Part shown: positions 3,160-17,853 of the stretch, in pieces
How positions within the stretch are numbered: position 1 is the stretch's first letter
Layout: each line of letters starts with the position of its first letter
DNA from: Candidatus Wallbacteria bacterium
Lineage (GTDB): Bacteria; Muiribacteriota; UBA9980
Assembly (NCBI GenBank): GCA_022703765.1
Contig: JAKJHQ010000001.1
Location: forward strand, 1 to 17,853
DNA length: 17,853 nucleotides
Reading direction: 5' to 3'
The notes under the pieces: generated by a model
Database searches by the model: none
What the model was told of the DNA's origin: nothing
Seen by the model: the letters and a program-made list of their open reading frames with translations, nothing else
Position numbers and translations under genes: made by a program

Positions 3160-3282
3160 TATCGAAACGCTTAAATAACTGGCAATCCAGTCATGTGCTG
3201 ATGATTGTAGTTGCCGCTCATCATTGTGCCGTAACGAAAACACAAATATTTTTGTCATCGTCAATTTTGTTGAAATGTCATT

Positions 3283-4422: not shown

Positions 4423-4808
4423 CGGTCGCTACCGGAGCTGATGTTATCGATTGAGCCGGACAGTTCGCCTTTGCCGCCGCACCAGCGGCACGTCACGAAT
4501 TTTACGACGCCGTCCCAGCAGTTAATTTTGCCGCAGGAGCATTTGAATATACCTTTCGACTCGCAATAAGGGCAGCCTTTGTAAGTTTCACCAAAATCAA
4601 AACTGCCGGCTATCGTTGTTTTATCGTAGCCTTCTTTGCTGGCCTGGTTTTCTTTTACCGGAAACGCCCAATCGCCAATCCATCGGTTCCGTGATTTTTC
4701 CTCGAACCGTATGCCGTAGAGCTTGCCGGTTTTAAGGCAGCGAACGGCCGCGACGGCCACGTTAAGAAGCGGAAAGCCTTTTTCTTTATTTTCCCTGAAC
4801 TCGTTCAT
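4419..4808 (-). CDS. Small Cys-rich zinc-ribbon protein and fourth gene of the TerY-P-type operon.
   Basis: A 129-aa ORF containing CPYC...CSCGKINCWDG...CRWCGGKG. It lies 4 bp after the kinase stop and overlaps the next start. Its C-x-C-G...C-W-D pattern resembles the zinc ribbon in the C-terminal tail of the kinase (CKCGAEN...CWDC). Confidence 0.6.
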   Translation of the reverse strand: MNEFRENKEKGFPLLNVAVAAVRCLKTGKLYGIRFEEKSRNRWIGDWAFPVKENQASKEGYDKTTIAGSFDFGETYKGCPYCESKGIFKCSCGKINCWDGVVKFVTCRWCGGKGELSGSIDNISSGSDR

Positions 4809-4812
4809 TATG

Positions 4813-6129
4813 CTACGCCCTTATTTCGCCCGTGGCTTTGCCGAAGTTGATCTTCAGGCCGTTAAGTATCGGCGCGTTCCTGCCGGGCTCAACGTCTTTT
4901 AAAGTGCCGTCCGGCATTGTGATATTCCACTTTTCGCTCGAATCGTTCTTCAGACCCCATTGCCCCGGTTTATTCGGGTTTTGATTCACTTCGGCCACTA
5001 ATATTGAAAAATCGAAGATCTTACTGTGATCGTCGATGTGGTGAGGATGGATTTTAGTGTCGTAGTTGAGCATCACTATATTGCCGCCGATATTTATTCT
5101 CGGAGGAAGCGTCATCGCTTTCCGGCAATCCCAGCATGTAAGTGATTTATTCTTTTGAAGTTTTTCCTTATCATAAAAATTCTCGGCGCCGCACTTGCAG
5201 TACATTACCGAGTCGAGAAGCCTTATCAGGGCCATGCGCCATTCGCTTTCGCGCACCCGGCCGTTGACCGGATCTTTTATTCCGGTAGTAAAGGCTTTCA
5301 TGAAAAGGTTCTTGATGAATTCCGGATAAATATCCCAGAAGGCGATGGCGTTGTCGTGATAACCTTTTACCGGCCGGTTGGAGTCGTCCGCCGGATCGTA
5401 AATAAAGACGGGCTCGGTGCCGTAAAGTTTGTTCATGGCCGGCAGGTCGAAACATTTGATGTCCGACTCTTTCTTGCCCTCGAGCGGATGGCTGGTCATG
5501 AGTATGTAAAATAAAAGAACGGCGAGGGAGTAAAGATCGGTATCCTTGTTCGGCTTCGAATCGCCGCGAACGACCTCGGGCGCCATGAAGCGGGGAGTAC
5601 CGAGAACTCCGCCGTCGCTCTGGCCGTCAATCGACACGTTATCGTTGTCGCATATCAGGACTTCGCCCGTATTCGGGTCGAAAAAAGCATTGCCGAATGA
5701 AATATCCCTGTAGCAAAGGCCTTTTGAATGAAGCTGAAGAAAGCTGTTGGCTAGTTCGAAACCGACCCTCACGAGCACCGCTAATTTTGGCGATATGCGG
5801 CGTTTCATGAGGTCCACTATATTGCCGAACCTTTTCTCGCGCAGCGGCATGACGTATCCAAATCCGGGCGTTGACGACTCAGTGACGATCTCGGCCGGCC
5901 AGAGGAACCTGGCGTTAGGCGCGCCTTTTTCGATTAGTTTTTCAAGCGCGGTTCGCTGCTGAGGAGTGGCTGAATTAGGATAATACCATTTCAGCGCGAC
6001 CGCCTGCCCGCCCAGATCGGCCTTATAAACTTCGCCCTGGCCGCCGCCGCCTAAAAATTCTCCCACGCGGCAGTCTAATTTGGATATTTCAGTCTTGACG
6101 ACCTGATTTTTTTTTAAGATCTCGCTCAT
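4813..6129 (-). CDS. Atypical Ser/Thr protein kinase (the TerY-P kinase) with a C-terminal zinc-ribbon-containing extension.
   Basis: Glycine loop LGGGGQGEVYKA and a VAIK-equivalent, VALKWY. The catalytic-loop motif is CYRDISFGN (YRD instead of HRD), and ICDNDN replaces DFG. An APE motif is present (GTPRFMAPE). A C-terminal ~150 aa segment contains CKCG...CWDC. Confidence 0.85.
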   Translation of the reverse strand: MSEILKKNQVVKTEISKLDCRVGEFLGGGGQGEVYKADLGGQAVALKWYYPNSATPQQRTALEKLIEKGAPNARFLWPAEIVTESSTPGFGYVMPLREKRFGNIVDLMKRRISPKLAVLVRVGFELANSFLQLHSKGLCYRDISFGNAFFDPNTGEVLICDNDNVSIDGQSDGGVLGTPRFMAPEVVRGDSKPNKDTDLYSLAVLLFYILMTSHPLEGKKESDIKCFDLPAMNKLYGTEPVFIYDPADDSNRPVKGYHDNAIAFWDIYPEFIKNLFMKAFTTGIKDPVNGRVRESEWRMALIRLLDSVMYCKCGAENFYDKEKLQKNKSLTCWDCRKAMTLPPRINIGGNIVMLNYDTKIHPHHIDDHSKIFDFSILVAEVNQNPNKPGQWGLKNDSSEKWNITMPDGTLKDVEPGRNAPILNGLKINFGKATGEIRA

Positions 6130-6188
6130 AATATCAACCTTTTTACTTCGCGAAAATTTTTGTGAACTAAACTTTTCGAGTTATTACC

Positions 6189-7112
6189 CTATATGTATTT
6201 TTTGTAGTCTTTTATTATCATTCCCAGAGTGACGTCGTCGCCCGACATTTTAGCCGAAGCTTCCAGCCATTCCCTGATGCTGCATTCTGTCGAGACCGCG
6301 CCTTCGCTTCGTAAAATGTCCAGAATGTCCTTTCCTACCTTAAAAAAATTATCATCATCACGGAATGAGTTGGAATAACCGTCGGTCGAGATCAGTATCA
6401 GCTCGGGAAATTTAAAATCAGCATTCACCGGGTAGAATTTAATTCGGAACTCGTTCCACGGGTCTTTCGAACAAAACGAAGTGGTTTCGTTGGCGATGAG
6501 TTTTTCGTCCCTGGCGACCGCCCTGACCGTCGTTCCGTCCTCGTAAACGCTTAAAATATCGCCGTCGCCGAGCTGCATGTAAAACATGAACGCATTATGA
6601 ATGCCGGCCATCAGAAGCGTCGAACCGTAAACTATTTTATTGTCCTTTAAAACTGCCTCGACGGACCTCGCATCCGACTTTTTCTCTAATTCCTTCAATT
6701 CTTCTTCGGTAAACGGGTTTCTTGAAACGTCGGTCTCGACCTCTTCGCGCCAGGCCTGAACGATCTTACGCGGGAGCCTGTTCTCGAGTTCGTCTTTGAT
6801 AAGGGACAGATTGTCGATATTATTCTTCGAGCATTCGTCAAAAAAATCCCTGACGGCTCTCACGGCTACTTTGACCGCATACTCCGAGCCGGTATGGCTT
6901 CTGAAACTCTTGACGCTTCCATGGCCGTCGGATATGGCCAGGACCAGAGGAATTGTATGGCCGGCAGCACATTCCGTCACCCAGTGGTTTTCGGCGTCCT
7001 GATTCTTGAGCCCCACCCGGGCGTGGGACGAGCCTATGACGCTTCCTGATATGATATTCCACGAAACGATCTTTTTATCGATCTGGTCGGGCATAAATTT
7101 TTCGATCACCAT
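6189..7112 (-). CDS. PP2C-family Ser/Thr phosphatase (the TerY-P phosphatase).
   Basis: PP2C motifs are present: GLKNQDAE, LAISDGHGS, QLGDGDI and ISTDGYSNSF. The start overlaps the vWA gene end by 7 bp. Confidence 0.85.
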   Translation of the reverse strand: MVIEKFMPDQIDKKIVSWNIISGSVIGSSHARVGLKNQDAENHWVTECAAGHTIPLVLAISDGHGSVKSFRSHTGSEYAVKVAVRAVRDFFDECSKNNIDNLSLIKDELENRLPRKIVQAWREEVETDVSRNPFTEEELKELEKKSDARSVEAVLKDNKIVYGSTLLMAGIHNAFMFYMQLGDGDILSVYEDGTTVRAVARDEKLIANETTSFCSKDPWNEFRIKFYPVNADFKFPELILISTDGYSNSFRDDDNFFKVGKDILDILRSEGAVSTECSIREWLEASAKMSGDDVTLGMIIKDYKKYI

Positions 7113-7807
7113 ACGTCGCCAGAACCGGCGGGATCCTGGGCCGGCGCCTGCGGAATAGGAACGTTGGTCGAGCCGTTCTGGGCGTCTTTAGCCTGGCTGG
7201 CAGGCGCGGAAGCCGATTTAAGGACGGCGGTAGAGACCCATTTAATATATTTAACGAGCGATTCGGGATTATTCGCCTCGAGCGGCTTTATCTCCGGATG
7301 GCCGATGAACTTCTGCAGCACGTCTTTATCGGCATCGGAGCCTATGGCTATCGATATGCGGACCGATTTTCTGCCCCAGGGCAGATCCATAAGTTCTTTC
7401 AGGCCGGACGCATAATCGTCCGTCGGCTGGCCGTCGGAGATCAGTACCAGCACGGGAGGCAGCGCCCTGTCCGACATCGGGGGGATCTTTAACTGTTCAG
7501 CCGTCATTTTAAGCGCGTGGCCGAGATCGGTAACGCCATCCGCGCTGAGGTCGGACCATTTGAAATCTCTGACCGGCGTCGGCTGCGTAATGTGCCACTG
7601 GGCACCGCTGGAAAACTTTATGGCGCGCACCAGCACTTCGGCGTTGGGGTTCTCGTCCGCTACTTTTTGCATGTGAGGTATAGACTCGCGTATTGCGTTA
7701 TTCAGAGACTGGATTTTGCCGTCAACACTCATCGAGCCCGAGCAGTCGCAGATCCATATAAAATGAAGCGGACGGGTCGCAAGCTCGCCGCCTGGAAGTT
7801 TTGCCAT
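7106..7807 (-). CDS. TerY-like von Willebrand factor A (vWA) domain protein, the first gene of the TerY-P triad.
   Basis: A MIDAS motif (DCSGSMS, i.e. DxSxS) follows a hydrophobic strand (HFIWICD). The vWA motif LVLISDGQPTDD is present. On the minus strand a GGAGGA RBS (plus-strand tcctcc at 7817-7822) sits about 9 nt upstream of the ATG. Confidence 0.85.
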   Translation of the reverse strand: MAKLPGGELATRPLHFIWICDCSGSMSVDGKIQSLNNAIRESIPHMQKVADENPNAEVLVRAIKFSSGAQWHITQPTPVRDFKWSDLSADGVTDLGHALKMTAEQLKIPPMSDRALPPVLVLISDGQPTDDYASGLKELMDLPWGRKSVRISIAIGSDADKDVLQKFIGHPEIKPLEANNPESLVKYIKWVSTAVLKSASAPASQAKDAQNGSTNVPIPQAPAQDPAGSGDVW

Positions 7808-7842
7808 AATTAATCATCCTCCCGTATATTTCGAATAAGATT

Positions 7843-7872
7843 ATTATAATATCTAATACGGAGGGTTGTCAA
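7843..7872 (-). promoter_or_regulatory. Near-consensus sigma70 promoter for the vWA-PP2C-kinase operon. The -35 TTGACA is at 7872-7867, followed by an 18-nt spacer and the -10 TATAAT at 7848-7843.
   Basis: Read on the minus strand: TTGACAaccctccgtattagataTTATAAT. The position is appropriate, about 35 nt upstream of the vWA ATG. Confidence 0.45.
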
Positions 7873-7878
7873 TATAAA

Positions 7879-7898
7879 TGTTATAATAACTTATAACA
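7879..7898. promoter_or_regulatory. Perfect 8-4-8 palindrome (tgttataa taac ttataaca) just upstream of the -35 of the TerY-P operon promoter. It is a candidate operator or regulator binding site.
   Basis: The inverted repeat is read directly from the sequence. It lies in the divergent intergenic region between the vWA gene and the DUF4236 gene. Confidence 0.35.
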
Positions 7899-8035
7899 TT
7901 AATTTACTCATTATTCAAAAATACAGTTCAAAAATTCATTATAAATTTATATTTAAAAAATAGATTGAATATGTTACAATTATTGTAAATTCGCAAAACA
8001 TAAGGCGATTATTTAGGTTCGAATTCGGGATTGAT

Positions 8036-9142
8036 ATGGGGTTTTATTTCAGAAAATCTAAAAAAATAGGGCCGTTCAGGATCAACTTTTCAAACAAGGG
8101 GATCGGCTTCTCTTCAGGCGTAAAAGGCGCACGCATTTCCACCAATTCAAAAGGAACTTATATAAATATGGGAAGCAACGGCCTCTATTACAGAGAAAAG
8201 ATCGGGCCGGGAATACCGCAGTTGAGTTTTTCTAACTTATTCGGATTGAATAAAAATAGCGGCAAGGGCCGAGCGCCGAACATCCCGAACGCCATTAAAG
8301 CGCCCGCCATAGACGATGGCGTCGATATTAACAATCTGCTTGCCGGGTCAAACGCTCAACTCGTAACGAAAATTAACGATAAAATAAAAACGGCCGGGAT
8401 CATGCCTCTGGTCGTTGCGTTCATAGTTATTTCAGGTTTTTTCGTCATCGTTTCCTATCCGTCTAAAATTTTGATAGTTATGGTCATCGCGATCATATCC
8501 TTCGTTGCGGCCAACATTTACGACAACTCACGGAGAACTTCCGAATTATTTTACGATCTGGACGATCCCGCGCGCGACGATTTCGACAAACTAAACCAGG
8601 CGTTATGCTCGTTATCCACGGCGCGCTTGTTGTGGCAGGTCAATGTGGCCCGCTCCGCAACGCCGTCGGCCGACAATAAGTACGGCCTCAAAGTTACGGG
8701 CCGCCGTGGGATCACTCTGTCAGACGCGCCTCCGCTTTTCATCGAGACCAATCTCGAGGTGTTTTCGATAGATATAGGCGAAGCCTCGCTTTATTTTTTA
8801 CCCGACAGGGTTCTGGTCTGCAAAAATTCGACCTATGCTTCGATCGGCTACGGCGATTTAAAAATAAAGTATACGGCGCTGTCCTTCGCCGAATATGAAA
8901 CCGTCCCGGACGACGCCGGCGTCATATCGCAAACCTACCTGCATGCGAACAGCGACGGCTCTCCCGATAAAAGATATTCGAACAACCCGCAGATACCTGT
9001 CGTTTCTTACGGGCTGCTCAAGTTATATTCAACCGGGGGATTGGAAATAAATCTGATGGTCTCGAATAATATTATCGCCGAAAAATTTTTTAACGATCTT
9101 TCTTCATGCATGAAAAGCATCAGTTCGAGGCTTTTGCCGTAA
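8036..9142 (+). CDS. DUF4236-family protein. It has the conserved N-terminal MGFxFRKSxKIGPFRINxS module, two central transmembrane helices and a C-terminal domain of unknown function.
   Basis: The N-terminus MGFYFRKSKKIGPFRINFSNKGIGFSSGVKGARIS matches the DUF4236 signature. A hydrophobic stretch, IMPLVVAFIVISGFFVIVSYPSKILIVMVIAIISFVAANIY, is consistent with two transmembrane segments. Confidence 0.7.
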   Translation: MGFYFRKSKKIGPFRINFSNKGIGFSSGVKGARISTNSKGTYINMGSNGLYYREKIGPGIPQLSFSNLFGLNKNSGKGRAPNIPNAIKAPAIDDGVDINNLLAGSNAQLVTKINDKIKTAGIMPLVVAFIVISGFFVIVSYPSKILIVMVIAIISFVAANIYDNSRRTSELFYDLDDPARDDFDKLNQALCSLSTARLLWQVNVARSATPSADNKYGLKVTGRRGITLSDAPPLFIETNLEVFSIDIGEASLYFLPDRVLVCKNSTYASIGYGDLKIKYTALSFAEYETVPDDAGVISQTYLHANSDGSPDKRYSNNPQIPVVSYGLLKLYSTGGLEINLMVSNNIIAEKFFNDLSSCMKSISSRLLP

Positions 9143-9155
9143 ATGCGGCGCGGCC

Positions 9156-10307
9156 CTACTGAACATTTGGGGCGAGCTTCGCCAATTCCGCCTTGCATTC
9201 ATCGAATTCGGGGCAAAGTTCCAGGGCGCGGTTATAGTAAAACGCGGCCTTTTCGCGGTCGCCTCTCTGACGGTATGTGTTAGCGAGCCTAAAGCAATAC
9301 TCGTCGTTATCGGGAAAAAGCCTTAAAGCTTCCTCGTAATATTTAACGGCTGAGGCGTAGTCATCAATTTGATAACAGCAGTTTGCCAGTTCAAAGTAAT
9401 AAAAATTATTATTCGGATCTATATCAACAGCTTTTTTCAAATATTTGACCGCTTCGGAATAGCCGTTCCGGGCTATCTTGATCCTGGCCGTCTGATAGTA
9501 ATATTCGGATTTTGAGTCATCGATCGATAACGCGGTATCAATATTTTTAAGAGACCTATCATAGTCAATTAATTCAAGATACGCGCAGGATAATTTGTAA
9601 TAGTAGCCGGCGGCGTAAGCAGTAGCTTGCGCGGTTAATTTTTCATAGTCGGCGGCGGCGGCCTTAAAATTCGCGATGTTAAAATTAGAGTTGGCGCGGT
9701 ACAGATAAGCCATAGAATAGTCAGGGTTCAGCTCGAGCACATGGCTGAAATCGTCGATCGCTTTTTCAAAAAAACCCAGATTATAGTAAGCCAGGCCGCG
9801 GGCATTGTATAGTTCGAAGTAAAACTGGTCGTATTCTAGAGCCTTATCGAAGCAGACAAGTGCCTGCTCATATTTAAACTCACTGACGAGTTCCAGGGCG
9901 CGGTTGTAATGAGTAAAAAAATCCCTTTCAGGGCGTTGCGGCCCGCTGAATACTATCCGTTCCGTCACGGGCTCCTGAGAATCTTCCAGAGAGTCTTCCG
10001 GCAATATCCCGAATGCGAACGCCCAGGAGTCGACTGCCCAGAATGCGCATTCTTTGGTAGTACCGTAATTGTCGATGATCTTTTTTGCAATGGACTGGCG
10101 GTCAAGCTGATAAGGAACCCTTTTTGCGTTTATCGCCGCGACGGATTCTTTTTGCGCGCATAGAAGCAGAAATATCTCGAGTTTGCGCGAACCGAAAAGA
10201 TCCTTAAAAAGACTTTCCAGGCGCTTCGGATCGTTTACGACATTAAAGCCGTAAATGTCAATAATTTCCTTTAATTTTTTTCGCACGTTATTGCCGTTTT
10301 TATCCAT
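9156..10307 (-). CDS. TPR-repeat protein. Its N-terminal ~100-aa domain is paralogous to the N-terminus of the FGE-like protein.
   Basis: 383 aa. There are multiple TPR-like repeats (for example AYYNLGFFEKAIDDFSHVLELNPDYSMAYLYRANS and ALRLFPDNDEYCFRLANTYRQRGDREKAAFYYNRALEL). The N-terminus, KLKEIIDIYGFNVVNDPKRLESLFKDLFGSRKLEIFLLLCAQKESVAA, aligns with the FGE-like protein segment KLFEILENHGNLIYLDEKRLEGLLKDLCGAYKREINLVMAAVRSGVAK. Confidence 0.85.
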   Translation of the reverse strand: MDKNGNNVRKKLKEIIDIYGFNVVNDPKRLESLFKDLFGSRKLEIFLLLCAQKESVAAINAKRVPYQLDRQSIAKKIIDNYGTTKECAFWAVDSWAFAFGILPEDSLEDSQEPVTERIVFSGPQRPERDFFTHYNRALELVSEFKYEQALVCFDKALEYDQFYFELYNARGLAYYNLGFFEKAIDDFSHVLELNPDYSMAYLYRANSNFNIANFKAAAADYEKLTAQATAYAAGYYYKLSCAYLELIDYDRSLKNIDTALSIDDSKSEYYYQTARIKIARNGYSEAVKYLKKAVDIDPNNNFYYFELANCCYQIDDYASAVKYYEEALRLFPDNDEYCFRLANTYRQRGDREKAAFYYNRALELCPEFDECKAELAKLAPNVQ

Positions 10308-10391
10308 AACTATTGCTTTACAATCCTTCGATAATTTTATACCATAAAATTAATATATTTTCAATATTATCTTTTGACGTATTACATATTT

Positions 10392-10442
10392 TTGACATTT
10401 TTGATATAAACGATTGACATCAAAATAGGTTAGTATTATAAT
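10392..10442 (+). promoter_or_regulatory. Consensus sigma70 promoter for the zorA-like gene. The -35 TTGACA is at 10414-10419, followed by a 17-nt spacer and the -10 TATAAT at 10437-10442. A second TTGACA lies upstream at 10392-10397.
   Basis: Read directly from the sequence. An AGAGG RBS at 10462-10466 sits 6 nt before the ATG at 10473. Confidence 0.5.
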
Positions 10443-10472
10443 ACCGAATATTTATTCATAAAGAGGTAATTT

Positions 10473-12560
10473 ATGCAGGAATATTCGAATTTAATAAATC
10501 TTACGATGTGCTGCTTAATAGGCATTGCATTTTTGATTTTCAGGATATCTCTGATCATCCCCATCAAGAATTTGAGGAAAAAACTTACATTTATCAATAA
10601 CAGGCTGACCTTATTCAAGTTCAATGACGAAACCGAGCTGGCCGTATTTTTAAAAGAAAATTTTAAAAATTTCGCCACACTTGCGGAAATTTATACGGAC
10701 TTCATAGAAGAAAGGTCTTTGAATATAATTGAATATTCTGGCAAAACATACAGCCACATCAAACATTCCGATTTTTTCAGCGCCGAAAATATTTCAGAAA
10801 AATTGCTCAATTTAAGGATGATAAATTCCATACCCGGCATAATGACAGGCCTTGGCATACTTGGCACCTTCATCGGCCTTATAATAGGCATTTCTTCAAT
10901 CCATATAACGAAGGGCGAGATATTACTAAACGACATTCAATCCCTTCTGTCGGGCATGAACATAGCCTTCTTAACTTCGATCGTTGGAATAATACTCGGA
11001 CTGTACTGGATCCTTAATGAAAAGCGCCATTATAAGAACCTTTTGATCGAGATTGAAAAATTTAATATCAACATAGAAAAGTACTATCCGACGATAGATC
11101 TCGAGCACATCATCATAAAAAGCATGATCTCGAACATTAAGAACAACGAGATCCTGCCCCAGAAATTTGAAAGCGTAAATAAGACGCTTGAGCTGACGGC
11201 CGACAGGATAATCGAATCTCAAAACAAAAGTTTCTCTTTGATATCATCGAGCATAAACTCAGGTCTTAAAGACGAATTCCTGCCTGAAATAAAGAAAGCG
11301 ATCGATCAATCGTTCGAATACACCAATAAGGCGATGAGCTTTCTGACGGAGTTCACCGCGACGCTTGACACACTGAAAGACGATCTTTTGAGGGTTAGCG
11401 CGGAGCACAAAGAGAACGCAATAACCGTCAAAACCGAGATCAAAGCCATAATGAACTCCATAAAGGAAAGTTTCGAGATAACTTCTAAATTCAGGGATTT
11501 CGCCAAGACGCTCAACGCAACGTTTGAAAAGGCGACGGGCAACATGAATCAAACTGTAAATAAAATGAATGAATTTTCAAATAAAATAGTCGAGTCGGCC
11601 GATAAATTCGAGGCCGGGTTAAATCAGTTCTCTGAAAAATTTCTGAACGGGAAACAGCAGGTCGAGATAAATATCAAAAAACTAGCGTCAGAAATATCGA
11701 TTTTGACTAATAGCTTCAATGATACTTTTGAAAAGATCAAGGTCGAAGCGGTTGATTTCAGCGGCGAACTCGATCGTATCGTTCATAAGGCCATTTTCAT
11801 ATTCAACAAACAACTCAGCTGCTATGAAGGCCTGCCAAATAAAATAGCGGACGTCGTGGCCAACAAGATCAACAGGGCGTTCGACAGCAACAAACTCGCA
11901 GATTCGGTAAAGGCGATAAGCGACGAGCTGGTGATCAAGTTTATCGGTATAAAGGATATGCTGAAGAACGCGACCGACAGCCTCGGCGGCAGCATCGCCA
12001 ATCTGGGCGACACCTTTGAAGTATATTCGCAGCAGATGAAAAGCCTGCCGGAAGATATCAGCATTGAAATATCCAAAAAAATCCAGACCGCGTTCGACAG
12101 TTCTGATAACTTCAAGATGTTCGGCGAGTTCAAAAACTCTCTTAATGAATTTAACAATAATTTCTCGGCGCAGGTCAAGGAAGCCGCCAGGGCCATCGGC
12201 GGCTCAGTAATGTCGAGCGTCAAGGACATTGAGTCGTTCCTCATGAAGACCAATAAGATTTTTGGCGATTTCCAGCGTTCCATAAATGGCATCGAAGACA
12301 AAATGCGCGAGACAGGCGAATTCTTAGAGAAATCAGCCGGCCTGCTGGGAACGAACCTGAGCCAAAGTTTCAACCAGACATTCTCCGTTTTTGACGAGCA
12401 GTTGTCAAAAATTTCAATGCGCCTGAGTGGCACTATAACGGAGATCGATTCAGCGGTTAAGGATATTCCAGCAGTGATAAACGAATTTCAGAACGCGCTC
12501 GACTCGCAGATCGGTTTAATCCAAAAGGAAGCGGTAAAAAATAATAATTTAAAACAATAA
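10473..12560 (+). CDS. zorA: ZorA-like protein, with a MotA/TolQ/ExbB-type proton-channel transmembrane core and a ~500-aa cytoplasmic coiled-coil tail.
   Basis: 695 aa. The transmembrane segments are LINLTMCCLIGIAFLIF, SIPGIMTGLGILGTFIGLIIGISSI and GMNIAFLTSIVGIILGLYWIL, a MotA/ExbB-like signature. A long heptad-rich alpha-helical tail follows. The gene sits immediately upstream of a MotB/OmpA partner, as in Zorya. Confidence 0.75.
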   Translation: MQEYSNLINLTMCCLIGIAFLIFRISLIIPIKNLRKKLTFINNRLTLFKFNDETELAVFLKENFKNFATLAEIYTDFIEERSLNIIEYSGKTYSHIKHSDFFSAENISEKLLNLRMINSIPGIMTGLGILGTFIGLIIGISSIHITKGEILLNDIQSLLSGMNIAFLTSIVGIILGLYWILNEKRHYKNLLIEIEKFNINIEKYYPTIDLEHIIIKSMISNIKNNEILPQKFESVNKTLELTADRIIESQNKSFSLISSSINSGLKDEFLPEIKKAIDQSFEYTNKAMSFLTEFTATLDTLKDDLLRVSAEHKENAITVKTEIKAIMNSIKESFEITSKFRDFAKTLNATFEKATGNMNQTVNKMNEFSNKIVESADKFEAGLNQFSEKFLNGKQQVEINIKKLASEISILTNSFNDTFEKIKVEAVDFSGELDRIVHKAIFIFNKQLSCYEGLPNKIADVVANKINRAFDSNKLADSVKAISDELVIKFIGIKDMLKNATDSLGGSIANLGDTFEVYSQQMKSLPEDISIEISKKIQTAFDSSDNFKMFGEFKNSLNEFNNNFSAQVKEAARAIGGSVMSSVKDIESFLMKTNKIFGDFQRSINGIEDKMRETGEFLEKSAGLLGTNLSQSFNQTFSVFDEQLSKISMRLSGTITEIDSAVKDIPAVINEFQNALDSQIGLIQKEAVKNNNLKQ

Positions 12561-12638
12561 TTTAAAGAAACAACAACAGAAGCAAAAGTAAAAACTATAT
12601 TAACAATAATAGTTAATAATACAAATATAGGTATCAAC

Positions 12639-13460
12639 TTGTTCAACAAGCAATTAAAACAACACGATTTAAGCGATAAAAACGACTTTCTCATCTCGAT
12701 CTCAGACCTGATGACCGGGATAATGATGATCTTCGTGCTCACCCTTATCGCGGTCTTATACAGCAAAACGACCGATGTGGTTCAATACGTAAGAGAAATC
12801 GAGGCCAAGAAGGAAACATTAGCTAAAATACAATCCGAACTCGACCATAAAACCGAACAATTAAAGCTTAAAGAAAACGCGCTCGACTCAAAGGAGATCG
12901 AACTAAAATATTACAAAGACCAGATCGAAAAAATTATAGGCATCAAGAGCTCTATAATCAATCTGATCAAGGAAAAATTCGAACGGTCGTCGTCTAATCT
13001 GAAACTGGCAGTCGATCCGTTCACAGGGGCGATCCGGATAAGCGGCGATATTTTATTCGATACCGACTCCGACGCCATTAAAGAAGAATTCAAGCCTCTG
13101 CTAAAACTGCTGCTGGAAACTTACGTCAACATCCTATTCGACACTCAGGAGTTCATAGACCATCTCGCAGAAATAGTCATAGAAGGCCATGCGGACAACC
13201 GCGGCGACTACATTTATAATCTTGATCTTTCGCAGCGCCGCGCGCAGTCTATCATGAAATATTTCATTCAGGTGGTCGATCCGGCCAAAAAAGAGCTTTT
13301 CCAGAAATTCGTGACGGCGAACGGCAAATCGTTCAGCGTTCCGATCAAAGACCCGACCGGGAACGTCGATCTTGACAAATCACGCCGCATCGAGGTCAAA
13401 TTCAGGTTAAAGGACGACGAGGCGTTGAAAGAACTTTCGAAATTACTGGATCAAAAATAA
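12639..13460 (+). CDS. zorB: ZorB-like protein, with a MotB-type plug and transmembrane helix plus a C-terminal OmpA-like peptidoglycan-binding domain. The start codon is TTG.
   Basis: 273 aa. The DFLISISDLMTGIMMIFVL segment (MotB plug and transmembrane helix; compare the ZorB/MotB WISYADLMT motif) is present. The OmpA-like motifs GHADNRGDYIYNLDLSQRRAQSI are also present. Confidence 0.8.
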   Translation: MFNKQLKQHDLSDKNDFLISISDLMTGIMMIFVLTLIAVLYSKTTDVVQYVREIEAKKETLAKIQSELDHKTEQLKLKENALDSKEIELKYYKDQIEKIIGIKSSIINLIKEKFERSSSNLKLAVDPFTGAIRISGDILFDTDSDAIKEEFKPLLKLLLETYVNILFDTQEFIDHLAEIVIEGHADNRGDYIYNLDLSQRRAQSIMKYFIQVVDPAKKELFQKFVTANGKSFSVPIKDPTGNVDLDKSRRIEVKFRLKDDEALKELSKLLDQK

Positions 13461-13477
13461 GCGGGCAGTGACAAACT

Positions 13478-14689
13478 ATGGCATCCGACTCGAATCGCGA
13501 CAAGGGAATATTTATAAATTTAAGCAGCTGCACGCCGACCAGACTTATCGAAGCGGCCGAGACGATCGCGCGTACGCATAAGCGGCACTCTAAAAATGAC
13601 GAGACGCTTTCGGCCGCGTCGGGGCCCGACAACTTTGACGAATTGCTCAAGAAGATAAAGCGCGGGGGCCGCAACGAACTCGTTAAAATAGCGTTCGCGC
13701 TCACCAGGCGGGAGGCTTTATTTTTATTGACCGCTTTAAAGAACGAAGATGATTCATTCTGCGATAAAGTCCTCGCCATAGTAGGACTTCGCAGACAGAT
13801 ATTCAAATTCTCGCTTTTCTGGAACGCGCTGGTGTTATCGCCCGAAAATAAAAATCTTTATTCATTGACGATCGCAACCACGTCGGCCGGAGGCGATCAA
13901 AAAAGGCCGGGCACGGAGGGCATAAATATGGTCGAAGCAGAGAGATTTTTCATCAAAAGTCAGCCGGCCTCTTTCATCGACGGCCTATTCATTTTATACC
14001 AGAATAAAAAATACATATTGAGTAACTTTTGCGCCTATTATTCGATACACAAAGACGGCTTTTTACACGGGCTGATGATAAAGAAGATTATGACGGGGTA
14101 CGAGCCTGAATTCGGAAGGCTTGAGGGCGACATCCAAATTTTTTCATATTTAACGAAGCACCTGTCAAAAGAAGAGGCGATTCAATTCGCCGGAAAATAT
14201 TTCAGCCAGACACCCGACGATGCCTGGAACGAGTTGATATTGAATTATTTTTTCCACCTGCTCGGAACGCCTTCCAACATGGACAACTGGAATTTCGTCA
14301 CGGGACCGGTTCTGAAAAAACTGCAGAACAGATACAGCATCGCCGAGATAAGAAAATTTTTCGACAAGCTCGACAAAGACAACGTCCGGTTCAACTTCTG
14401 GCAAAAGAACTACGGCCAGCGCTTCACGAACGCCTATAAATTCAGCCAGATAAACGCCATTCTAATGTATATCGAAAACATCGCGATCCTCGAATTCGCC
14501 AACATCGGCAACGCCTGTTACGTTTATAAAGCCGAATTCGCCGACCTGCTGATCAGAAAATTTTACAACTCATCATACGAGTCAAAACTGAAATATCCAG
14601 AACAAGCTCTGTTCAGGGTCATACACAAGCAGGACTGGCAGTACGAAGCGCTCGCGAGGATAAATAGCGCTATAGGTAATAAAATCTAA
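13478..14689 (+). CDS. Hypothetical 403-aa protein co-directional with zorAB. It may be a ZorC-like (EH-signature) protein or a novel Zorya partner. I found no nuclease or NTPase motifs.
   Basis: An ORF lies 17 bp after zorB on the same strand. The sequence is alpha-helical and aromatic-rich with no HNH, Walker or PD-(D/E)xK motifs. The ZorC-like assignment rests only on position and length. Confidence 0.55.
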   Translation: MASDSNRDKGIFINLSSCTPTRLIEAAETIARTHKRHSKNDETLSAASGPDNFDELLKKIKRGGRNELVKIAFALTRREALFLLTALKNEDDSFCDKVLAIVGLRRQIFKFSLFWNALVLSPENKNLYSLTIATTSAGGDQKRPGTEGINMVEAERFFIKSQPASFIDGLFILYQNKKYILSNFCAYYSIHKDGFLHGLMIKKIMTGYEPEFGRLEGDIQIFSYLTKHLSKEEAIQFAGKYFSQTPDDAWNELILNYFFHLLGTPSNMDNWNFVTGPVLKKLQNRYSIAEIRKFFDKLDKDNVRFNFWQKNYGQRFTNAYKFSQINAILMYIENIAILEFANIGNACYVYKAEFADLLIRKFYNSSYESKLKYPEQALFRVIHKQDWQYEALARINSAIGNKI

Positions 14690-14708
14690 TCATTTAAAAT
14701 CAGGACTT

Positions 14709-15239
14709 TTATATATCATCTTCTTCGTCTTCTTGTTCAAATCTTCGTTCGCCTTCATACCGATCATAATATCCGTTATTTTCTTCAAATTCCTCCTCTT
14801 CAGTTATTTCTTTGAGCCTCCTTGTATATTCTAAGTAATCTCTTTCTTCATCAGCACTTATTTCATATTCAATCTCCTCTTCTTTTCTGAGACATATTTC
14901 TTCGTCATCATCCATAAGATCATCTAGATCGATTTCATAATCTCCTGATTCATGTATAATTTGTTCTTCGACATCACGATCTATTTCCTCTTCAGTTAAA
15001 TTTTCTATTTCTTCTTCATCAATTTCCTTTTCTTTTAAGTATTCTTTTTCTTCCTTTTCTTTTTCTCTTTCTTCTTTATTTCTAATTTCTCCTTCGGTTT
15101 CTTCAATATCACAACCACATATAGGACATTCACCGTCATCAGTTATATAACCATAATAACCACATTCCGGACAAGTAACTTCATCATCAAACAATATTAT
15201 ACTCCTATTTTCAAAACGTTGAAAAACATGATTATTCAA
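14709..15239 (-). CDS. Hyper-acidic zinc-ribbon protein (N-terminal CPEC...CPICGC followed by a ~130-aa Glu/Asp-rich tail). It is a candidate DNA mimic or regulator.
   Basis: 176 aa. About 45% of residues are D or E after the zinc ribbon. The gene is very AT-rich, with GAA/GAG codon runs. It starts 7 nt after the SF1 helicase stop. Confidence 0.65.
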   Translation of the reverse strand: MNNHVFQRFENRSIILFDDEVTCPECGYYGYITDDGECPICGCDIEETEGEIRNKEEREKEKEEKEYLKEKEIDEEEIENLTEEEIDRDVEEQIIHESGDYEIDLDDLMDDDEEICLRKEEEIEYEISADEERDYLEYTRRLKEITEEEEFEENNGYYDRYEGERRFEQEDEEDDI

Positions 15240-15246
15240 TCAGCAG

Positions 15247-16998
15247 TTATAATTTTTCAGAGTTTATAACTTCAGAACTCTCAATAATCTTCTTAAATAT
15301 TTCCGTTTCATCTTTCGAGAAGTAATTCTGGTTCAAAAGATAATCTCGGTTTCCAACAATTATCAGTAATTCTTTAGCACGCGAAAGTGCAACATTGATT
15401 AACTCTTTTCTTGCAGTAAGTCTTGTCGGTTTAACTTCGTCGTCGCAGATATTCATAATAATGACGCTTTTTTCCTGGCCCTGAAATGAATGAATCGTCG
15501 ATACCTGTACTTGTTCAAAATACTCTGGATTGATTTTAATGAGTTCAGTGGACTTTGCGAGAACCTCTTTAATTTTGACTATCTGGGCGTTATAAGGTGC
15601 GATAATGCCAATTTCTTCAGATTTAAATTCCTTATTGTTTACAAGTTTAATTGTTATTCCGGCAATCGCTTCGGCATGCTTTTCATTGAATCTTCTTTCT
15701 TCCGTTCCATTTATAACGGCGCCGTTTATGTTTTCAATTTTTCCCTTACAATTTATAAACACTATATTGCTTTTGAAAGTTCCTTTAATGTCTTTTTTTG
15801 CCGTGCCCGTCTTTAACTCGCCTTCGTAAAATAGATCGCTTACAAGATTTCCAATCGGCTCCTGCATCCTGTACTGCGTATCGAGAAATGCTGTTCTTTC
15901 GTCGTGCCGTTCAACCTTTGCCATATCAAAAATATTCCGGCTAAACCAGGCATTCGGCTTGTCGGCGTCATCCGGGAATATAGGAGGAAGCTGCATGGGA
16001 TCTCCACCCAGAACCACGCCTTTTTTGGCGTAATAACAAGCCGCGATGATTGCCGGTATGCTGGCCATGGACATTTCGTCTGCAATAACGAAATCAACCG
16101 GACCCGGATCAGCGGTTTTAGGCGAGGCAAGCGACGCAAAGTTAGTGGCTACGCAGGTACAAAGGCTCACATGCTCGTTCCATGTAAAAGCGTTTCGCTT
16201 GATCCTATATTGCCTGTTCTGATATATGTCTCGGCTAAAAATCTTTACCGAATCATGCATATTATCAACGCTGCCCGTTCTTGCGACCGTAATATTGAAT
16301 TTGTTGAGCGGCGAGGCTGATTCCAGTGTAGATATGAGGAGCTGGTCCAGTGCCTTATTTGATAAAGCGGTCAGCAAAACCCGCTTACCGTTTTTTATAA
16401 GATGAGATGCGAGAGCGCCCATAGTTTTGGTTTTTCCGGTTCCAGGCGGCCCCCATACGAATGTGATATTTTGCGATAATGCTTTTTTGACGGCCTTTAT
16501 TTGAGATTCGTTAAGTTTATCGGCGGCAAATGCAGCGACGACTTCCTTATGATCAGATAAAACCGATTTATCGAGTAGTGACGATACTATCTCGTTTGGG
16601 TTTGTCGAATTAATCGTCAAAAAATTCAAAAGATCGGCGGTTAATCTTCTGCCGTCCATAATATAATCGATTCCAAAATCTGTAATTTGTCGCAGATTAA
16701 AATTATCTATCCCGCTCGATCTTAAAACCGCTTTTTCAAATGTTACTTTAACCCCGTTTGAAACTTTTTCGAACTTTCCGTTAACGAATAGATCGCCGAC
16801 CCTGAACAACGGCTCATAAACGTATTTAATGTCTCTTAAAACCCTTTCGGGCGCGTTACGAAAAACAACTGAATAAGACCCGTCTGAATCGCTTTCACCA
16901 GCCTTTCCATACATAAAATAGCGGGCGCGGTTACGCGGCTCATCGAGACGGGTAATTTCAGATTTAACCGACTCCTGTATTTCATTAAGGTCAATCAT
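15247..16998 (-). CDS. Upf1/DNA2-like SF1B helicase (AAA_11/AAA_12 type).
   Basis: Q-motif LNESQIKAV, Walker A FVWGPPGTGKTKT, Walker B VIADEMSMAS, motif III VLGGDPMQLPPI, motif IV DTQYRMQEPIG, motif V VSTIHSFQGQEKSVII and motif VI VALSRAKELLIIVG. The start overlaps the upstream gene by 8 nt. Confidence 0.9.
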   Translation of the reverse strand: MIDLNEIQESVKSEITRLDEPRNRARYFMYGKAGESDSDGSYSVVFRNAPERVLRDIKYVYEPLFRVGDLFVNGKFEKVSNGVKVTFEKAVLRSSGIDNFNLRQITDFGIDYIMDGRRLTADLLNFLTINSTNPNEIVSSLLDKSVLSDHKEVVAAFAADKLNESQIKAVKKALSQNITFVWGPPGTGKTKTMGALASHLIKNGKRVLLTALSNKALDQLLISTLESASPLNKFNITVARTGSVDNMHDSVKIFSRDIYQNRQYRIKRNAFTWNEHVSLCTCVATNFASLASPKTADPGPVDFVIADEMSMASIPAIIAACYYAKKGVVLGGDPMQLPPIFPDDADKPNAWFSRNIFDMAKVERHDERTAFLDTQYRMQEPIGNLVSDLFYEGELKTGTAKKDIKGTFKSNIVFINCKGKIENINGAVINGTEERRFNEKHAEAIAGITIKLVNNKEFKSEEIGIIAPYNAQIVKIKEVLAKSTELIKINPEYFEQVQVSTIHSFQGQEKSVIIMNICDDEVKPTRLTARKELINVALSRAKELLIIVGNRDYLLNQNYFSKDETEIFKKIIESSEVINSEKL

Positions 16999-17853
16999 AA
17001 TTTATTCTCGGTAATACTCTATAATTTCCGTTTTCCCAATCCTTATAAGGATTATCCAATATATTCCTCCAGGCTTCGTAAGGATTTTGAATTATTTCTA
17101 CCTGCGATTCCGACTTGCCGACGTTATAAACTTTGCAAATGTAATAATTTTCCTTCAATTCTTTTGCTTTCTTCCACTGCGCCCTGCTCGGCATTACCCA
17201 ATTATCCGTTTTAACTTCAAAATACTTACGAATTCCGTTTTCTGTAACGTCGATGTCTCTTCCAATGGCATTAACTTTTGAGCTGTTGACCAATTCTAAT
17301 TTTAATATTTCTTTTCCGTCGTCAATCAGCGCGAAAATATTTTCGCCATCGCAAGTTTTCCAGGTTGCGGACGGGTATAATTCTTTATAATATACTTCTT
17401 TTAAAAACTTAATTACAGTTAATTCTCCTCTGAACCCAATATTTTTCAATGACTCAGGGTTGCTCATTTTTCTTTTTTTTACGCCCGTAGTTGCGGTTTC
17501 TTCATTATCACATTCATATTGAAAATCATCAGAACATTTTGTATCGCTAGATGTGGCTCTGGTTACTTTAACATCATCGATTTTGCTGCATTCCGGCACC
17601 CAAATTTCGTTATTGAATTTTTCAGTTTGGTCAACAGACGAAGGCCTTTTTTTTGTACTCTTTTCATTAATTTCCCCTACTTTAGACGTACTTTCATCGA
17701 TCTGAATTTCAGTTTTTCCCCTTTTTCTTCTGAGAGCTTCGTTCAAATCTTCGATATCAAGTTCCAAAGCTATTTTAAGCTTGTCTCTGCATTTGTCGTC
17801 GCTTATTTTATTGATTGCTTCAAGCAATGAATCCTGCATAAAACTTAATTCTT
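16991..17853 (-). CDS. DUF3883-like protein with a restriction-endonuclease-fold (PD-(D/E)xK) domain. It may be 5'-partial: the frame is open upstream of the ATG at 17839 to the window end.
   Basis: The C-terminal part reads GRDIDVTENGIRKYFEVKTD...YYICKVYNV, which matches the DUF3883 core (D-x-D ... E-V-K-T, then Y-x-x-Y-x-V). A basic, low-complexity N-terminal half is present. There is no in-frame stop between 17839 and 17853, so the true start may lie beyond the window. Confidence 0.6.
   Translation of the reverse strand, partial: ELSFMQDSLLEAINKISDDKCRDKLKIALELDIEDLNEALRRKRGKTEIQIDESTSKVGEINEKSTKKRPSSVDQTEKFNNEIWVPECSKIDDVKVTRATSSDTKCSDDFQYECDNEETATTGVKKRKMSNPESLKNIGFRGELTVIKFLKEVYYKELYPSATWKTCDGENIFALIDDGKEILKLELVNSSKVNAIGRDIDVTENGIRKYFEVKTDNWVMPSRAQWKKAKELKENYYICKVYNVGKSESQVEIIQNPYEAWRNILDNPYKDWENGNYRVLPRINYD

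What the first reader, a model, noticed from the sequence alone, without database searches (positions are those of the whole stretch)
14709..17853. Convergent module: DUF3883 (REase-fold) protein, Upf1-like SF1 helicase and hyper-acidic zinc-ribbon protein, resembling a split nuclease-helicase immunity system
The three genes are co-directional with 8-nt and 7-nt junctions, which indicates an operon. A DUF3883 PD-(D/E)xK-like domain encoded next to an Upf1/DNA2-type SF1B helicase parallels single-chain nuclease-helicase defence proteins of the Nhi type. It also parallels helicase and nuclease pairs found in other defence systems. Here the two functions are split over two genes and combined with an unusual acidic third component. 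The module abuts the Zorya-like genes and may be functionally linked to them.
Basis: partly seen in the sequence, partly recalled or inferred. Interest (0 to 1): 0.7.

Follow-up and report, generated by a model that had tools for sequence, protein, structure and literature searches.

The report
Tiamat-like nuclease-ATPase with helicase partner
The "small nuclease" is the cut-off tail of a 1056-residue Tiamat-type defence protein that is paired in an operon with an Upf1-like helicase, while the acidic zinc-ribbon gene is swappable cargo and the Zorya genes next door look like neighbours rather than partners.

Summary
The three co-directional minus-strand ORFs exist, but the finding misreads two of them.

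- **Gene 1 is truncated by the window edge.** An identical metagenome contig shows a 1056-aa protein. It has an N-terminal sacsin/GHKL ATPase and a C-terminal DUF3883 (NOV_C) PD-(D/E)xK domain, and it matches PADLOC TmtA (Tiamat) at 4.8e-78.
- **Gene 2 is an intact Upf1/DNA2-like SF1B helicase.** Its start overlaps the TmtA-like stop by 8 nt.
- **The TmtA-like/helicase pair is conserved but narrow.** The pair, with a 4-8 nt overlap, occurs in five loci (helicase 60-87% identical in the four where it is complete). More distant TmtA-like proteins and helicase relatives stand alone. Two other lineages fuse a TmtA-like body to an AAA_11/12 helicase.
- **Gene 3 is not a conserved component.** In the closest relative, DNA homology stops at the helicase stop and resumes at the ZorC stop, with an unrelated gene between. 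Only one true homologue was found among 1.84 billion representatives.
- **Zorya looks like a neighbour.** ZorA, ZorB and a ZorC-like gene (no ZorD) lie beside the pair only in close relatives. Other loci lack Zorya or keep only a ZorC remnant.

Verdict: a new variant of a known kind, namely Tiamat-like with a dedicated helicase partner, sitting in a recombining defence island. Interest is moderate.

The parts
16991..17853 (-). 3' end (last 287 codons plus stop) of a TmtA-like (Tiamat-type) gene. The gene runs off the window. The full product is 1056 aa: sacsin/GHKL ATPase, a middle region, then DUF3883.
   Evidence: There is no in-frame stop upstream of 17839. L001 is 100% identical over 5538 nt and extends the ORF to 1056 aa. 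Pfam gives SACS 8.3e-18 and NOV_C 3.6e-7. PADLOC TmtA PDLC03972 scores 4.8e-78.
16994..17464 (-). DUF3883/NOV_C domain with a PD-(D/E)xK-type fold. Putative catalytic residues are E913 (17425-17423), D969 (17257-17255), E982-V-K984 (17218-17210) and Q995, in full-length numbering.
15247..16998 (-). Upf1/DNA2-like SF1B helicase, 583 aa. It comprises an N-terminal stalk plus 1B barrel (residues 1-158) and two RecA domains, with all motifs intact. Its start overlaps the TmtA-like stop by 8 nt.
14709..15239 (-). Hyper-acidic zinc-ribbon ORF. It is 176 aa from the TTG at 15239, or more likely 161 aa from the TTG at 15194, which follows AGGAG. It is lineage-specific cargo in a replaceable slot, not a conserved module component.
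   Evidence: Composition is. JGI called the start at 15194. It has no Pfam, PADLOC or NCBIfam family. One true homologue (P0243, 78% identity) exists in 1.84e9 representatives. L074 carries an unrelated gene in this slot, and DNA homology breaks exactly at the helicase stop and the ZorC stop.
10473..14689 (+). Neighbouring, convergent Zorya-like operon. ZorA is at 10473-12560, ZorB at 12639-13460, and a short ZorC-like protein (403 aa) at 13478-14689. No ZorD follows. It is listed as context, not as part of the module.
   Evidence: PADLOC gives ZorA 6.8e-32, ZorB 2.7e-61 and ZorC 3.5e-8 over the C-terminal region only. NCBIfam ZorC scores 1.2e-6, far below its cut-off. Pfam EH_Signature scores 1.2e-4, below its cut-off.

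Best explanation
The region holds the distal part of a Tiamat-like anti-phage module. Its conserved core is two translationally coupled genes.

- **Gene 1** is a TmtA-type protein. It has an N-terminal sacsin/Hsp90-like GHKL ATPase, a large middle region and a C-terminal DUF3883 PD-(D/E)xK nuclease domain.
- **Gene 2** is a compact Upf1/DNA2-like SF1B helicase.

**Proposed mechanism.** The two proteins form a complex. The helicase loads on foreign nucleic acid and translocates 5'->3'. The GHKL module acts as an ATP-driven dimerising switch that licenses the nuclease domain to cut.

**Shown**
- Domain composition and intact catalytic motifs of all three enzymatic modules.
- The 4-8 nt gene overlap, conserved in five loci.
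- Independent fusions of a TmtA-like body to an AAA_11/12 helicase.
- A defence-island setting.

**Inferred**
- Physical complex formation, nuclease activity, the target, and anti-phage function.
- 5'->3' polarity, taken from the established behaviour of the Upf1/DNA2/Sen1/IGHMBP2 family.
- The switch role of the GHKL module, taken from MutL/MORC-type GHKL proteins.

**Other genes.** The acidic zinc-ribbon gene is a narrow-range cargo gene sitting in a recombination-prone slot between two convergent systems. Its role is unknown; a DNA-mimic or regulator is possible. The adjacent ZorABC operon is most likely a separate system in the same island.
For: - **Identity of gene 1.** The full-length gene matches SACS plus NOV_C, and TmtA at 4.8e-78. 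The GHKL N-box E44-x3-N48-A-x-D51 and the GKFGIGF box can be read directly in the sequence.
- **Nuclease residues.** D, E-V-K and Q are invariant.
- **Helicase.** All motifs are invariant and it is Upf1-like by sequence and fold.
- **Conserved pairing.** TmtA-like lies directly upstream with a 4-8 nt overlap in window/L001, L074, L112, L070 and L075. Helicase identity is 87%, 61% and 60% in L074, L070 and L075 (in L112 it is cut by the contig end); TmtA identity ranges from 90% down to about 38%.
- **Domain fusions.** P0130 (1630 aa) and Chryseobacterium plasmid pA2BH1 WP_181715794.1 (1612 aa) fuse SACS to AAA_11/12.
- **Defence-island neighbours.** These include ZorABC, a DrmD-like SNF2 helicase, a VWA/PP2C/kinase operon, ParE and PhD toxin-antitoxin genes, BrxL-like and Schlafen-like genes.
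- **Literature.** DUF3883 is described as a REase domain (PMC3710099). Tiamat is listed as a single-gene PD-(D/E)xK system (bioRxiv 10.1101/2024.10.26.620412). HmaA needs its NOV_C domain to block T4 (PMC11232893). GHKL proteins work with helicases and nucleases in R-M-like operons (PMC2292703).
- **No phage context.** Searches found none.
Against: - No experiment exists for this family.
- The pair was seen in only five metagenomic loci, which fall into about three lineages. Window, L074 and L112 are close relatives, and L070 and L075 share 91-95% identical flanks.
- More distant TmtA-like proteins with NOV_C (P0159, P0175, Sulfuricurvum pSULKU01) have no SF1 helicase next to them.
- About 30 helicase relatives at 32-49% identity have no TmtA-like neighbour. 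The partnership is therefore lineage-specific.
- In L117 and L115 a helicase 57-60% identical follows a double-zinc-ribbon protein instead of TmtA.
Confidence: 0.6

Rival explanations
1. The system is larger than the pair. A DCD (PUA-like, putative modified-base reader) plus AAA+ ATPase protein, and a repeat protein X encoded upstream of TmtA, work with the Upf1-like helicase. The TmtA-like protein, or a double-zinc-ribbon protein in other strains, acts as an exchangeable effector or sensor cassette.
For: - DCD-AAA (433-438 aa) is present in every informative locus of the helicase clade at >=57% identity. It lies upstream in L074, L112 and L117 and downstream in L070 and L075.
- X (223-329 aa, no Pfam family) lies upstream of TmtA in L001, L074, L112 and L070.
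- L117 keeps DCD-AAA (94% identical to L074's) and a helicase, but swaps TmtA and X for a double-zinc-ribbon protein.
- DCD domains are predicted readers of modified bases in defence contexts (PMC7641849).
Against: - The same data fit DCD-AAA being a conserved flank of a variable hot spot. The flanks are 90-95% identical while the inner genes are 60-73% identical.
- Only two independent lineages show the linkage.
- The window itself does not reach these genes.
- Helicase relatives at 32-49% identity show no DCD-AAA neighbour.
Confidence: 0.22
2. The locus is a Zorya variant. ZorA, ZorB and ZorC-like lack ZorD and recruit the convergently encoded TmtA-like nuclease-ATPase and SF1B helicase as surrogate effectors.
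For: - ZorA, ZorB and ZorC-like have no ZorD downstream in the window or in L074.
- ZorD is an ATP-dependent SNF2 helicase-nuclease recruited by ZorAB (PMC11946911), and TmtA plus the helicase are functionally analogous.
- The adjacency is kept while the proteins have diverged to 76-92% identity.
Against: - The operons are convergent.
- The TmtA-like/helicase pair occurs without any ZorA or ZorB in the 7-10 kb flanks of L070 and L075.
- L117 retains the helicase module with only a 342-nt ZorC remnant.
- The two Zorya-adjacent loci are close relatives, so they count as one event.
- The ZorC-like protein has no other relatives to test reciprocally.
- A DrmD-like SNF2 helicase also lies in the island at window 3-2882.
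Confidence: 0.08
3. The locus is: a three-gene split Nhi-like system of a small DUF3883 nuclease, an Upf1-like helicase and an acidic zinc-ribbon subunit.
For: The three ORFs are co-directional and closely spaced. The nuclease-fold and helicase domains are confirmed.
Against: - Gene 1 is 1056 aa with a GHKL ATPase.
- The third gene is replaced by an unrelated one in the closest relative, and is absent or different in the others.
- The helicase matches no Nhi model in PADLOC.
Confidence: 0.03
4. The genes serve a housekeeping or repair function (a chaperone-like sacsin ATPase and a DNA2/RecD-like repair helicase) and are not part of immunity.
For: A source annotates the helicase as 'RecD-like' or 'Dna2'. 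Sacsin domains are chaperone-related in eukaryotes.
Against: - The distribution is patchy and both genes diverge fast between near-identical flanks.
- GC content is low (0.34-0.38) against 0.46-0.53 elsewhere in the window.
- The neighbours are defence and toxin-antitoxin genes.
- The TmtA HMM match is strong.
Confidence: 0.05

Closest known systems
Tiamat (TmtA), a single-gene anti-phage system catalogued in PADLOC and DefenseFinder
   Same: - The overall architecture is the same: an N-terminal sacsin/GHKL ATPase, a long middle region and a C-terminal DUF3883 PD-(D/E)xK domain.
- It matches nine PADLOC TmtA models, the best at 4.8e-78, covering both ends of the model.
- It sits in a defence island.
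   Different: - Tiamat is listed as a single-gene system (bioRxiv 10.1101/2024.10.26.620412). Here the gene is translationally coupled to an Upf1-like helicase and has conserved upstream neighbours (X and DCD-AAA).
- The protein is shorter (1056 aa) than eight of the nine matched PADLOC TmtA models (1302-1782 positions; the ninth has 1063), with part of the middle region missing.
- Identity to an experimentally tested TmtA was not measured.
Hma / HmaA (Snf2 helicase fused to NOV_C/DUF3883)
   Same: It combines an ATP-dependent helicase with a DUF3883 nuclease domain in phage defence. The nuclease domain is required against T4 (PMC11232893).
   Different: - Its helicase is SF2/Snf2 and is fused in one chain.
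- Here the helicase is SF1B/Upf1-like and sits on a separate polypeptide.
- Here the nuclease is fused to a GHKL ATPase instead.
   Same: It pairs a Upf1/DNA2-like SF1 helicase with a nuclease activity. This description is from my own knowledge and was not tested here.
   Different: Nhi is a single polypeptide with no GHKL module. The helicase here matched no PADLOC Nhi model at E <= 0.01.
Mokosh (MkoA helicase; MkoB or MkoC PLD nuclease)
   Same: The helicase core is most similar to the C-terminal helicase region of MkoA (7e-62 and 7e-53) and of MkoC (6.7e-29).
   Different: Only the last ~330 of 1112 positions of the best MkoA model align, so the MkoA N-terminal region is absent. No PLD nuclease is present. 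The partner is a TmtA-like protein.
Prokaryotic MORC/paraMORC GHKL ATPases in R-M-like operons (Iyer, Abhiman and Aravind 2008, PMC2292703)
   Same: It shares the theme of a GHKL ATPase working with a helicase and an endonuclease in DNA-targeting conflict systems.
   Different: Those systems use SF2 helicases and MORC-type GHKL+S5 modules. Here the GHKL is sacsin/NO VEIN-type and the helicase is SF1B.
Zorya type I (ZorABCD)
   Same: ZorA, ZorB and a ZorC-like gene lie immediately next to the module. ZorD is a helicase-nuclease effector, which the TmtA-like/helicase pair resembles functionally (PMC11946911).
   Different: - There is no ZorD.
- The pair is convergent with the Zorya operon, not part of it.
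- The pair is found without Zorya in other loci.

Membership tests
Tiamat (TmtA) | Significant match to TmtA profile HMMs over most of the protein | tested here: met
   PADLOC PDLC03972 scores 4.8e-78 (261 bits). Query residues 27-646 align to model positions 30-654. The C-terminal fragment aligns to model positions 1072-1287 at 4.4e-16. Eight further TmtA models also match.
Tiamat (TmtA) | N-terminal GHKL (sacsin/Hsp90-like) ATPase with ATP-binding motifs | tested here: met
   Pfam SACS scores 8.3e-18. PDB sacsin SRR scores 8e-8. The ExxxNAxD and GKFGIGF motifs can be read in the sequence.
Tiamat (TmtA) | C-terminal DUF3883/NOV_C PD-(D/E)xK domain with catalytic residues | tested here: met
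Tiamat (TmtA) | Acts as a single-gene system | tested here: not met
   A conserved 4-8 nt overlap with a downstream SF1B helicase is seen in five loci. By contrast, the more distant homologues P0159 and P0175 are stand-alone.
Tiamat (TmtA) | Protects against phage | not testable with these tools
The only support is the defence-island context.
Upf1-like SF1B helicases (AAA_11/AAA_12) | Both RecA domains with motifs I-VI intact | tested here: met
   Pfam AAA_11 scores 1.2e-26 and AAA_12 3.8e-35. The motifs are invariant in 26 family members. PDB matches are DNA2, Upf1, Sen1 and IGHMBP2.
Upf1-like SF1B helicases (AAA_11/AAA_12) | Stalk helices and a 1B beta-barrel N-terminal to RecA1 | tested here: inconclusive
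Nhi | Match to Nhi profile; nuclease and helicase in a single chain | tested here: not met
   No Nhi model appears among the 15 PADLOC hits of the helicase. The nuclease and helicase are on separate polypeptides.
Mokosh | Full-length MkoA together with a PLD nuclease (MkoB, or the MkoC fusion) | tested here: not met
   Only the C-terminal helicase part of the MkoA model aligns (positions 772-1099 of 1112). No PLD domain was found in any neighbouring gene.
Zorya type I | ZorA, ZorB, ZorC and ZorD all present in one operon | tested here: not met
   ZorA (6.8e-32) and ZorB (2.7e-61) are clear. ZorC-like is weak: 3.5e-8 over the C-terminal region only, and below the Pfam and NCBIfam cut-offs. There is no ZorD. 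The only SNF2 gene in the window (3-2882, minus strand) matches DrmD at 1.6e-208 and ZorD at only 2e-31.
   L074 carries an unrelated 206-aa protein in that position (E 0.07). L070 has a TPR protein there and L075 has nothing. DNA homology breaks exactly at the gene's borders.

The most novel reading that the evidence does not exclude
ZorA, ZorB and ZorC-like here form a ZorD-less Zorya. Its membrane motor recruits or activates the convergently encoded TmtA-like GHKL-nuclease and Upf1-like helicase in place of ZorD. That would be a Zorya subtype with a borrowed, independently mobile effector pair.
Probability: 0.08. Interest if true: 0.75.

Novelty: new variant of a known kind. Interest (0 to 1): 0.4.

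Why it matters
Tiamat is catalogued as a one-gene system, and none of the papers I retrieved reports a mechanism for it.

- **A handle on mechanism.** A natural variant has the TmtA-type GHKL-nuclease translationally coupled to an Upf1-like helicase. Other lineages fuse the two. This suggests the GHKL-nuclease works on substrates prepared or tracked by a 5'->3' translocase, as in MORC/paraMORC R-M-like systems.
- **Live module exchange.** The locus shows swapping within a defence island: near-identical flanks, 60-73% identical inner genes, a replaceable third-gene slot, and a ZorC remnant in a sister strain. This is useful for understanding how defence systems are swapped.
- **A practical caution.** A gene that is open at a window edge should not be read as a small protein.

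Tried and rejected
- **Genome-contig scan with the full helicase alignment.** The patterns chosen were generic (WGPPGTGK, HSFQGQE).
- **Viral-contig scan with the family-specific N-terminal alignment.** No hits.
- **tblastn against phage records.** Only helicases at 23-29% identity came back.
- **Homologue search for ZorC-like.** It returned only the protein itself and one relative at 76% identity. The reciprocal test, what lies next to other ZorC-like genes of this type, could not be made.
- **My recollection that ZorG is DUF3883.** This was wrong: ZorF is DUF3348 and ZorG is DUF2894. No known Zorya type carries DUF3883.
- **The idea that Zorya was inserted into a TmtA-helicase-TPR operon.** TPR genes do follow the helicase in L070 and L117. 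However, the window's TPR protein shares only generic repeat similarity with L070's (E 6e-11) and none with L117's, so I dropped it.
- **The SNF2 gene at window 3-2882 as a displaced ZorD.** It matches DrmD far better.
- **Promoter and terminator scan around the third gene.** Results did not exceed the shuffled controls.
- **Rfam scan of the window.** Nothing was found.


Full report
**Observation**

The minus strand of window 14709-17853 carries three co-directional ORFs at 16991..17839, 15247..16998 and 14709..15239. The first junction is an 8-nt overlap, ATGATTGA. The acidic ORF ends 19 nt from the stop of the convergent ZorC-like gene.

Two details of the finding fail.

The first ORF has no in-frame stop between its ATG at 17839 and the window end at 17853. 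An exact-sequence look-up of the helicase returned contig L001 (JGI 3300010355, Ga0116242_10022446). L001 is 100% identical to window 12316..17853 over 5538 nt and continues beyond the window. There the reading frame is a 1056-aa gene (L001 657..3827). The '282-aa DUF3883 protein' is therefore the C-terminal quarter of a much larger protein.

The '7-nt junction' to the third ORF assumes a TTG at 15239 that has no ribosome-binding site. A TTG at 15194 is preceded by AGGAG-N7. It is the start JGI called (161 aa), and the only homologue begins to align there. The likely gap is 52 nt.

**What the genes are**

*The TmtA-like protein.*
- The full-length first protein matches Pfam SACS (sacsin/Hsp90-like GHKL ATPase, 8.3e-18) at its N-terminus and NOV_C/DUF3883 (3.6e-7) at its C-terminus.
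- It matches nine PADLOC TmtA (Tiamat) models. The best, PDLC03972, scores 4.8e-78 and aligns to both ends of the model.
- The GHKL N-box (E44-x3-N48-A-x-D51) and the GKFGIGF glycine box are present in the sequence.
- The only solved relatives by sequence are sacsin SRR domains.

*The DUF3883 domain.*
- In an alignment with 14 relatives, D969, E982-V-K984 and Q995 are invariant and E913 is nearly so. These correspond to D76, E89-V-K91, Q102 and E20 in the numbering of the 163-residue fragment.
- This is the canonical PD-(D/E)xK constellation. The AlphaFold2 model (pLDDT 79.7) places these residues on helix 1, strand 2, strand 3 and helix 2 respectively.
- Foldseek against PDB found nothing significant.
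The Pfam match above gathering cut-off and the catalytic residues carry most of the weight.
- DUF3883 was described as a novel REase domain by Anantharaman et al. (PMC3710099).

*The helicase.*
- The second protein is an intact SF1B helicase: AAA_11 1.2e-26 and AAA_12 3.8e-35.
- Its closest solved relatives are DNA2, Upf1, Sen1/SETX and IGHMBP2, with E-values from 2e-28 to 5e-18.
- Its closest defence-system profile is the helicase part of Mokosh MkoA at 7e-62. No Nhi model matched.
- The Walker A, DE, GGDPxQLPP, QYRM and SRA motifs are invariant across 26 family members.

*The acidic protein.*
- The third protein has a CxxC-x11-CxxC zinc knuckle pair followed by a tail with 44% Asp+Glu, pI 4.05 and net charge -53.
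- It matches no Pfam, PADLOC or NCBIfam family.

**Conservation of the arrangement**

The helicase belongs to a sharply bounded family. About 112 near-full-length relatives score E < 1e-95, after which scores drop to 1e-43. I examined the genomic context of about 45 members.

- **Where the pair occurs.** A TmtA-like gene lies directly upstream, overlapping by 4-8 nt, in five loci:
  - window/L001;
  - L074 (helicase 87%, TmtA 90% identical);
  - L112 (TmtA 90%);
  - L070 (helicase 61%; TmtA about 38% over the C-terminal 800 residues and 43% over the GHKL region);
  - L075 (helicase 60%; TmtA is cut by the contig end, and its C-terminus is 54% identical).
- **Where it does not occur (helicase side).** An HMM built from 120 TmtA-like proteins found no further copy in the other loci. 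Helicases at 32-49% identity have no conserved neighbour.
- **Where it does not occur (TmtA side).** TmtA-like proteins with NOV_C at 30-33% identity (P0159, P0175) stand alone in defence islands, as does the copy on Sulfuricurvum plasmid pSULKU01. This matches Tiamat's listing as a single-gene system (bioRxiv 10.1101/2024.10.26.620412).
- **Conclusion.** The partnership is real but lineage-specific.
- **Independent support.** Two proteins fuse a TmtA-like body to an AAA_11/AAA_12 helicase: P0130 (1630 aa) and Chryseobacterium plasmid pA2BH1 WP_181715794.1 (1612 aa). The latter sits in an operon with a DNA methyltransferase and two further helicases.

**The third gene is not part of the conserved unit**

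- Between L001 and L074, DNA identity is 89.6% up to the helicase stop codon. It then vanishes and resumes at 78% exactly at the ZorC stop codon.
- L074 encodes an unrelated 206-aa protein in that slot (E 0.07). L070 has a TPR protein there, and L075 goes straight to the next gene.
- A full HMMER scan of 1.84 billion cluster representatives found one true homologue of the acidic protein: P0243, 78% identical, with all Cys conserved.
- The ORF is therefore a real but extremely narrow gene occupying a replaceable slot. A DNA-mimic or regulatory role is possible but untested.

**Relation to Zorya**

- Window 10473-14689 encodes ZorA (PADLOC 6.8e-32), ZorB (2.7e-61) and a short ZorC-like protein. 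The ZorC-like match covers the C-terminal region only (3.5e-8) and falls below the Pfam and NCBIfam cut-offs.
- No ZorD follows. In type I Zorya, ZorD is the SNF2 helicase-nuclease effector recruited by ZorAB (PMC11946911).
- The TmtA-like/helicase pair is therefore a tempting surrogate, but the evidence is against an obligatory link:
  - the operons are convergent;
  - Zorya lies next to the pair only in the window and in L074, which are one lineage;
  - L070 and L075 have no ZorA or ZorB in 7-10 kb of flank;
  - L117, from a closely related neighbourhood, keeps a helicase module but retains only a 342-nt remnant of the ZorC 3' end (89% identical to window 14364-14705). L117's DCD-AAA protein is 94% identical to L074's (the gene is 91% identical at DNA level).
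- The reciprocal test failed because ZorC-like has no other detectable relatives.

**A larger, recombining locus**

- Every informative locus of the helicase clade at >=57% identity also carries a DCD (Dev_Cell_Death, PUA-like) plus AAA+ ATPase gene. It lies upstream in L074, L112 and L117 and downstream in L070 and L075.
- Loci with TmtA also carry a repeat protein X upstream of it.
- In L117 and L115, TmtA and X are replaced by a 253-aa double-zinc-ribbon protein.
- Flanks are 90-95% identical while the TmtA and helicase genes are 60-73% identical.
- Two readings fit this pattern. One is a multi-gene system with exchangeable cassettes. The other is a hot spot bounded by a conserved DCD-AAA gene. 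I cannot separate them with these data.

**Mechanism and classification**

The best-supported reading is a Tiamat-like module in which the GHKL-nuclease and an Upf1-like 5'->3' translocase act as a complex on foreign nucleic acid.
- The domains, the motifs, the coupling of the genes and the fusions are shown.
- Complex formation, the substrate and the defence function itself are inferred.
- The general theme of a GHKL ATPase working with a helicase and an endonuclease is established for MORC/paraMORC systems (PMC2292703).
- Helicase plus DUF3883 is experimentally supported in HmaA (PMC11232893).

The locus fails the 'single-gene' criterion of Tiamat. It also fails membership of Nhi, Mokosh and type I Zorya. 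I therefore classify it as a new variant of a known kind.

No phage context was found. The low GC of this segment (0.34-0.38 against 0.46-0.53 in the left half) and the neighbouring defence genes fit a defence island.

Noticed in passing
window 3-2882, minus strand (runs off the left end): A reading frame of at least 960 aa encodes an SNF2-family helicase. The ORF listing does not show it because it leaves the window. Its best PADLOC match is DISARM DrmD (1.6e-208), against only 2e-31 for ZorD. Any DISARM partner genes would lie outside the window.
   Followed up: partly
window 3283-7807, minus strand: An operon encodes a VWA protein (7106-7807), a PP2C phosphatase (6189-7112), a Ser/Thr kinase (4813-6129), a TerY_C metal-binding protein (4419-4808) and an FGE-sulfatase-domain protein (3283-4422). 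From my own knowledge, it resembles the TerY-P triad conflict or stress modules.
   Followed up: no
L001 12-542; L074 1645-2316; L070 5068-6057; L112 2177-2848: A conserved gene X lies just upstream of the TmtA-like gene. It has 2-3 internal repeats of about 90 aa, with a motif of the form S-V-x-P-L-L-x-L-M...K-W-x-L...N-G-x-F-x-N-R. It has no Pfam or PADLOC family. It lies outside the window.
   Followed up: partly
L112 212-1513; L074 1-981; L070 12546-13862; L075 2158-3474; L117 2-580: A DCD (Dev_Cell_Death, PUA-like) plus AAA+ ATPase gene is linked to the helicase clade in every informative locus, in different gene orders. Its AAA part matches PADLOC IetA at 4e-30.
   Followed up: partly
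L117 622-1383 and L115 1-315: In sister loci the helicase (57-60% identical to the window's) is preceded by a 253-aa double-zinc-ribbon (DZR) protein instead of TmtA, and is followed by a TPR protein. This looks like an alternative cassette at the same position.
   Followed up: partly
window 3201-3264 and 14364-14705, compared with L117 4910-4974 and 4375-4716: L117 carries a ZorC 3' remnant and, about 200 nt further on, a 65-nt stretch 92% identical to window 3201-3264. Relative to L117, the roughly 11-kb block at window 3265-14363 is therefore an indel. That block holds the VWA/PP2C/kinase operon, DUF4236, TPR, ZorA, ZorB and most of ZorC.
   Followed up: partly
window 8036-9142 (+) and 9156-10307 (-): A DUF4236 protein with a predicted membrane segment, and a 383-aa TPR protein, lie between the kinase operon and ZorA. 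The TPR gene is also present after ZorA in L074 (78% identical over 81 aa).
   Followed up: no
L079, L080, L084, L085: Some helicase-family members at about 49% identity carry a C-terminal extension of about 260 aa (816-847 aa in total). They share a conserved downstream gene and a conserved 109-aa upstream gene, which suggests a different partnership in that clade.
   Followed up: no
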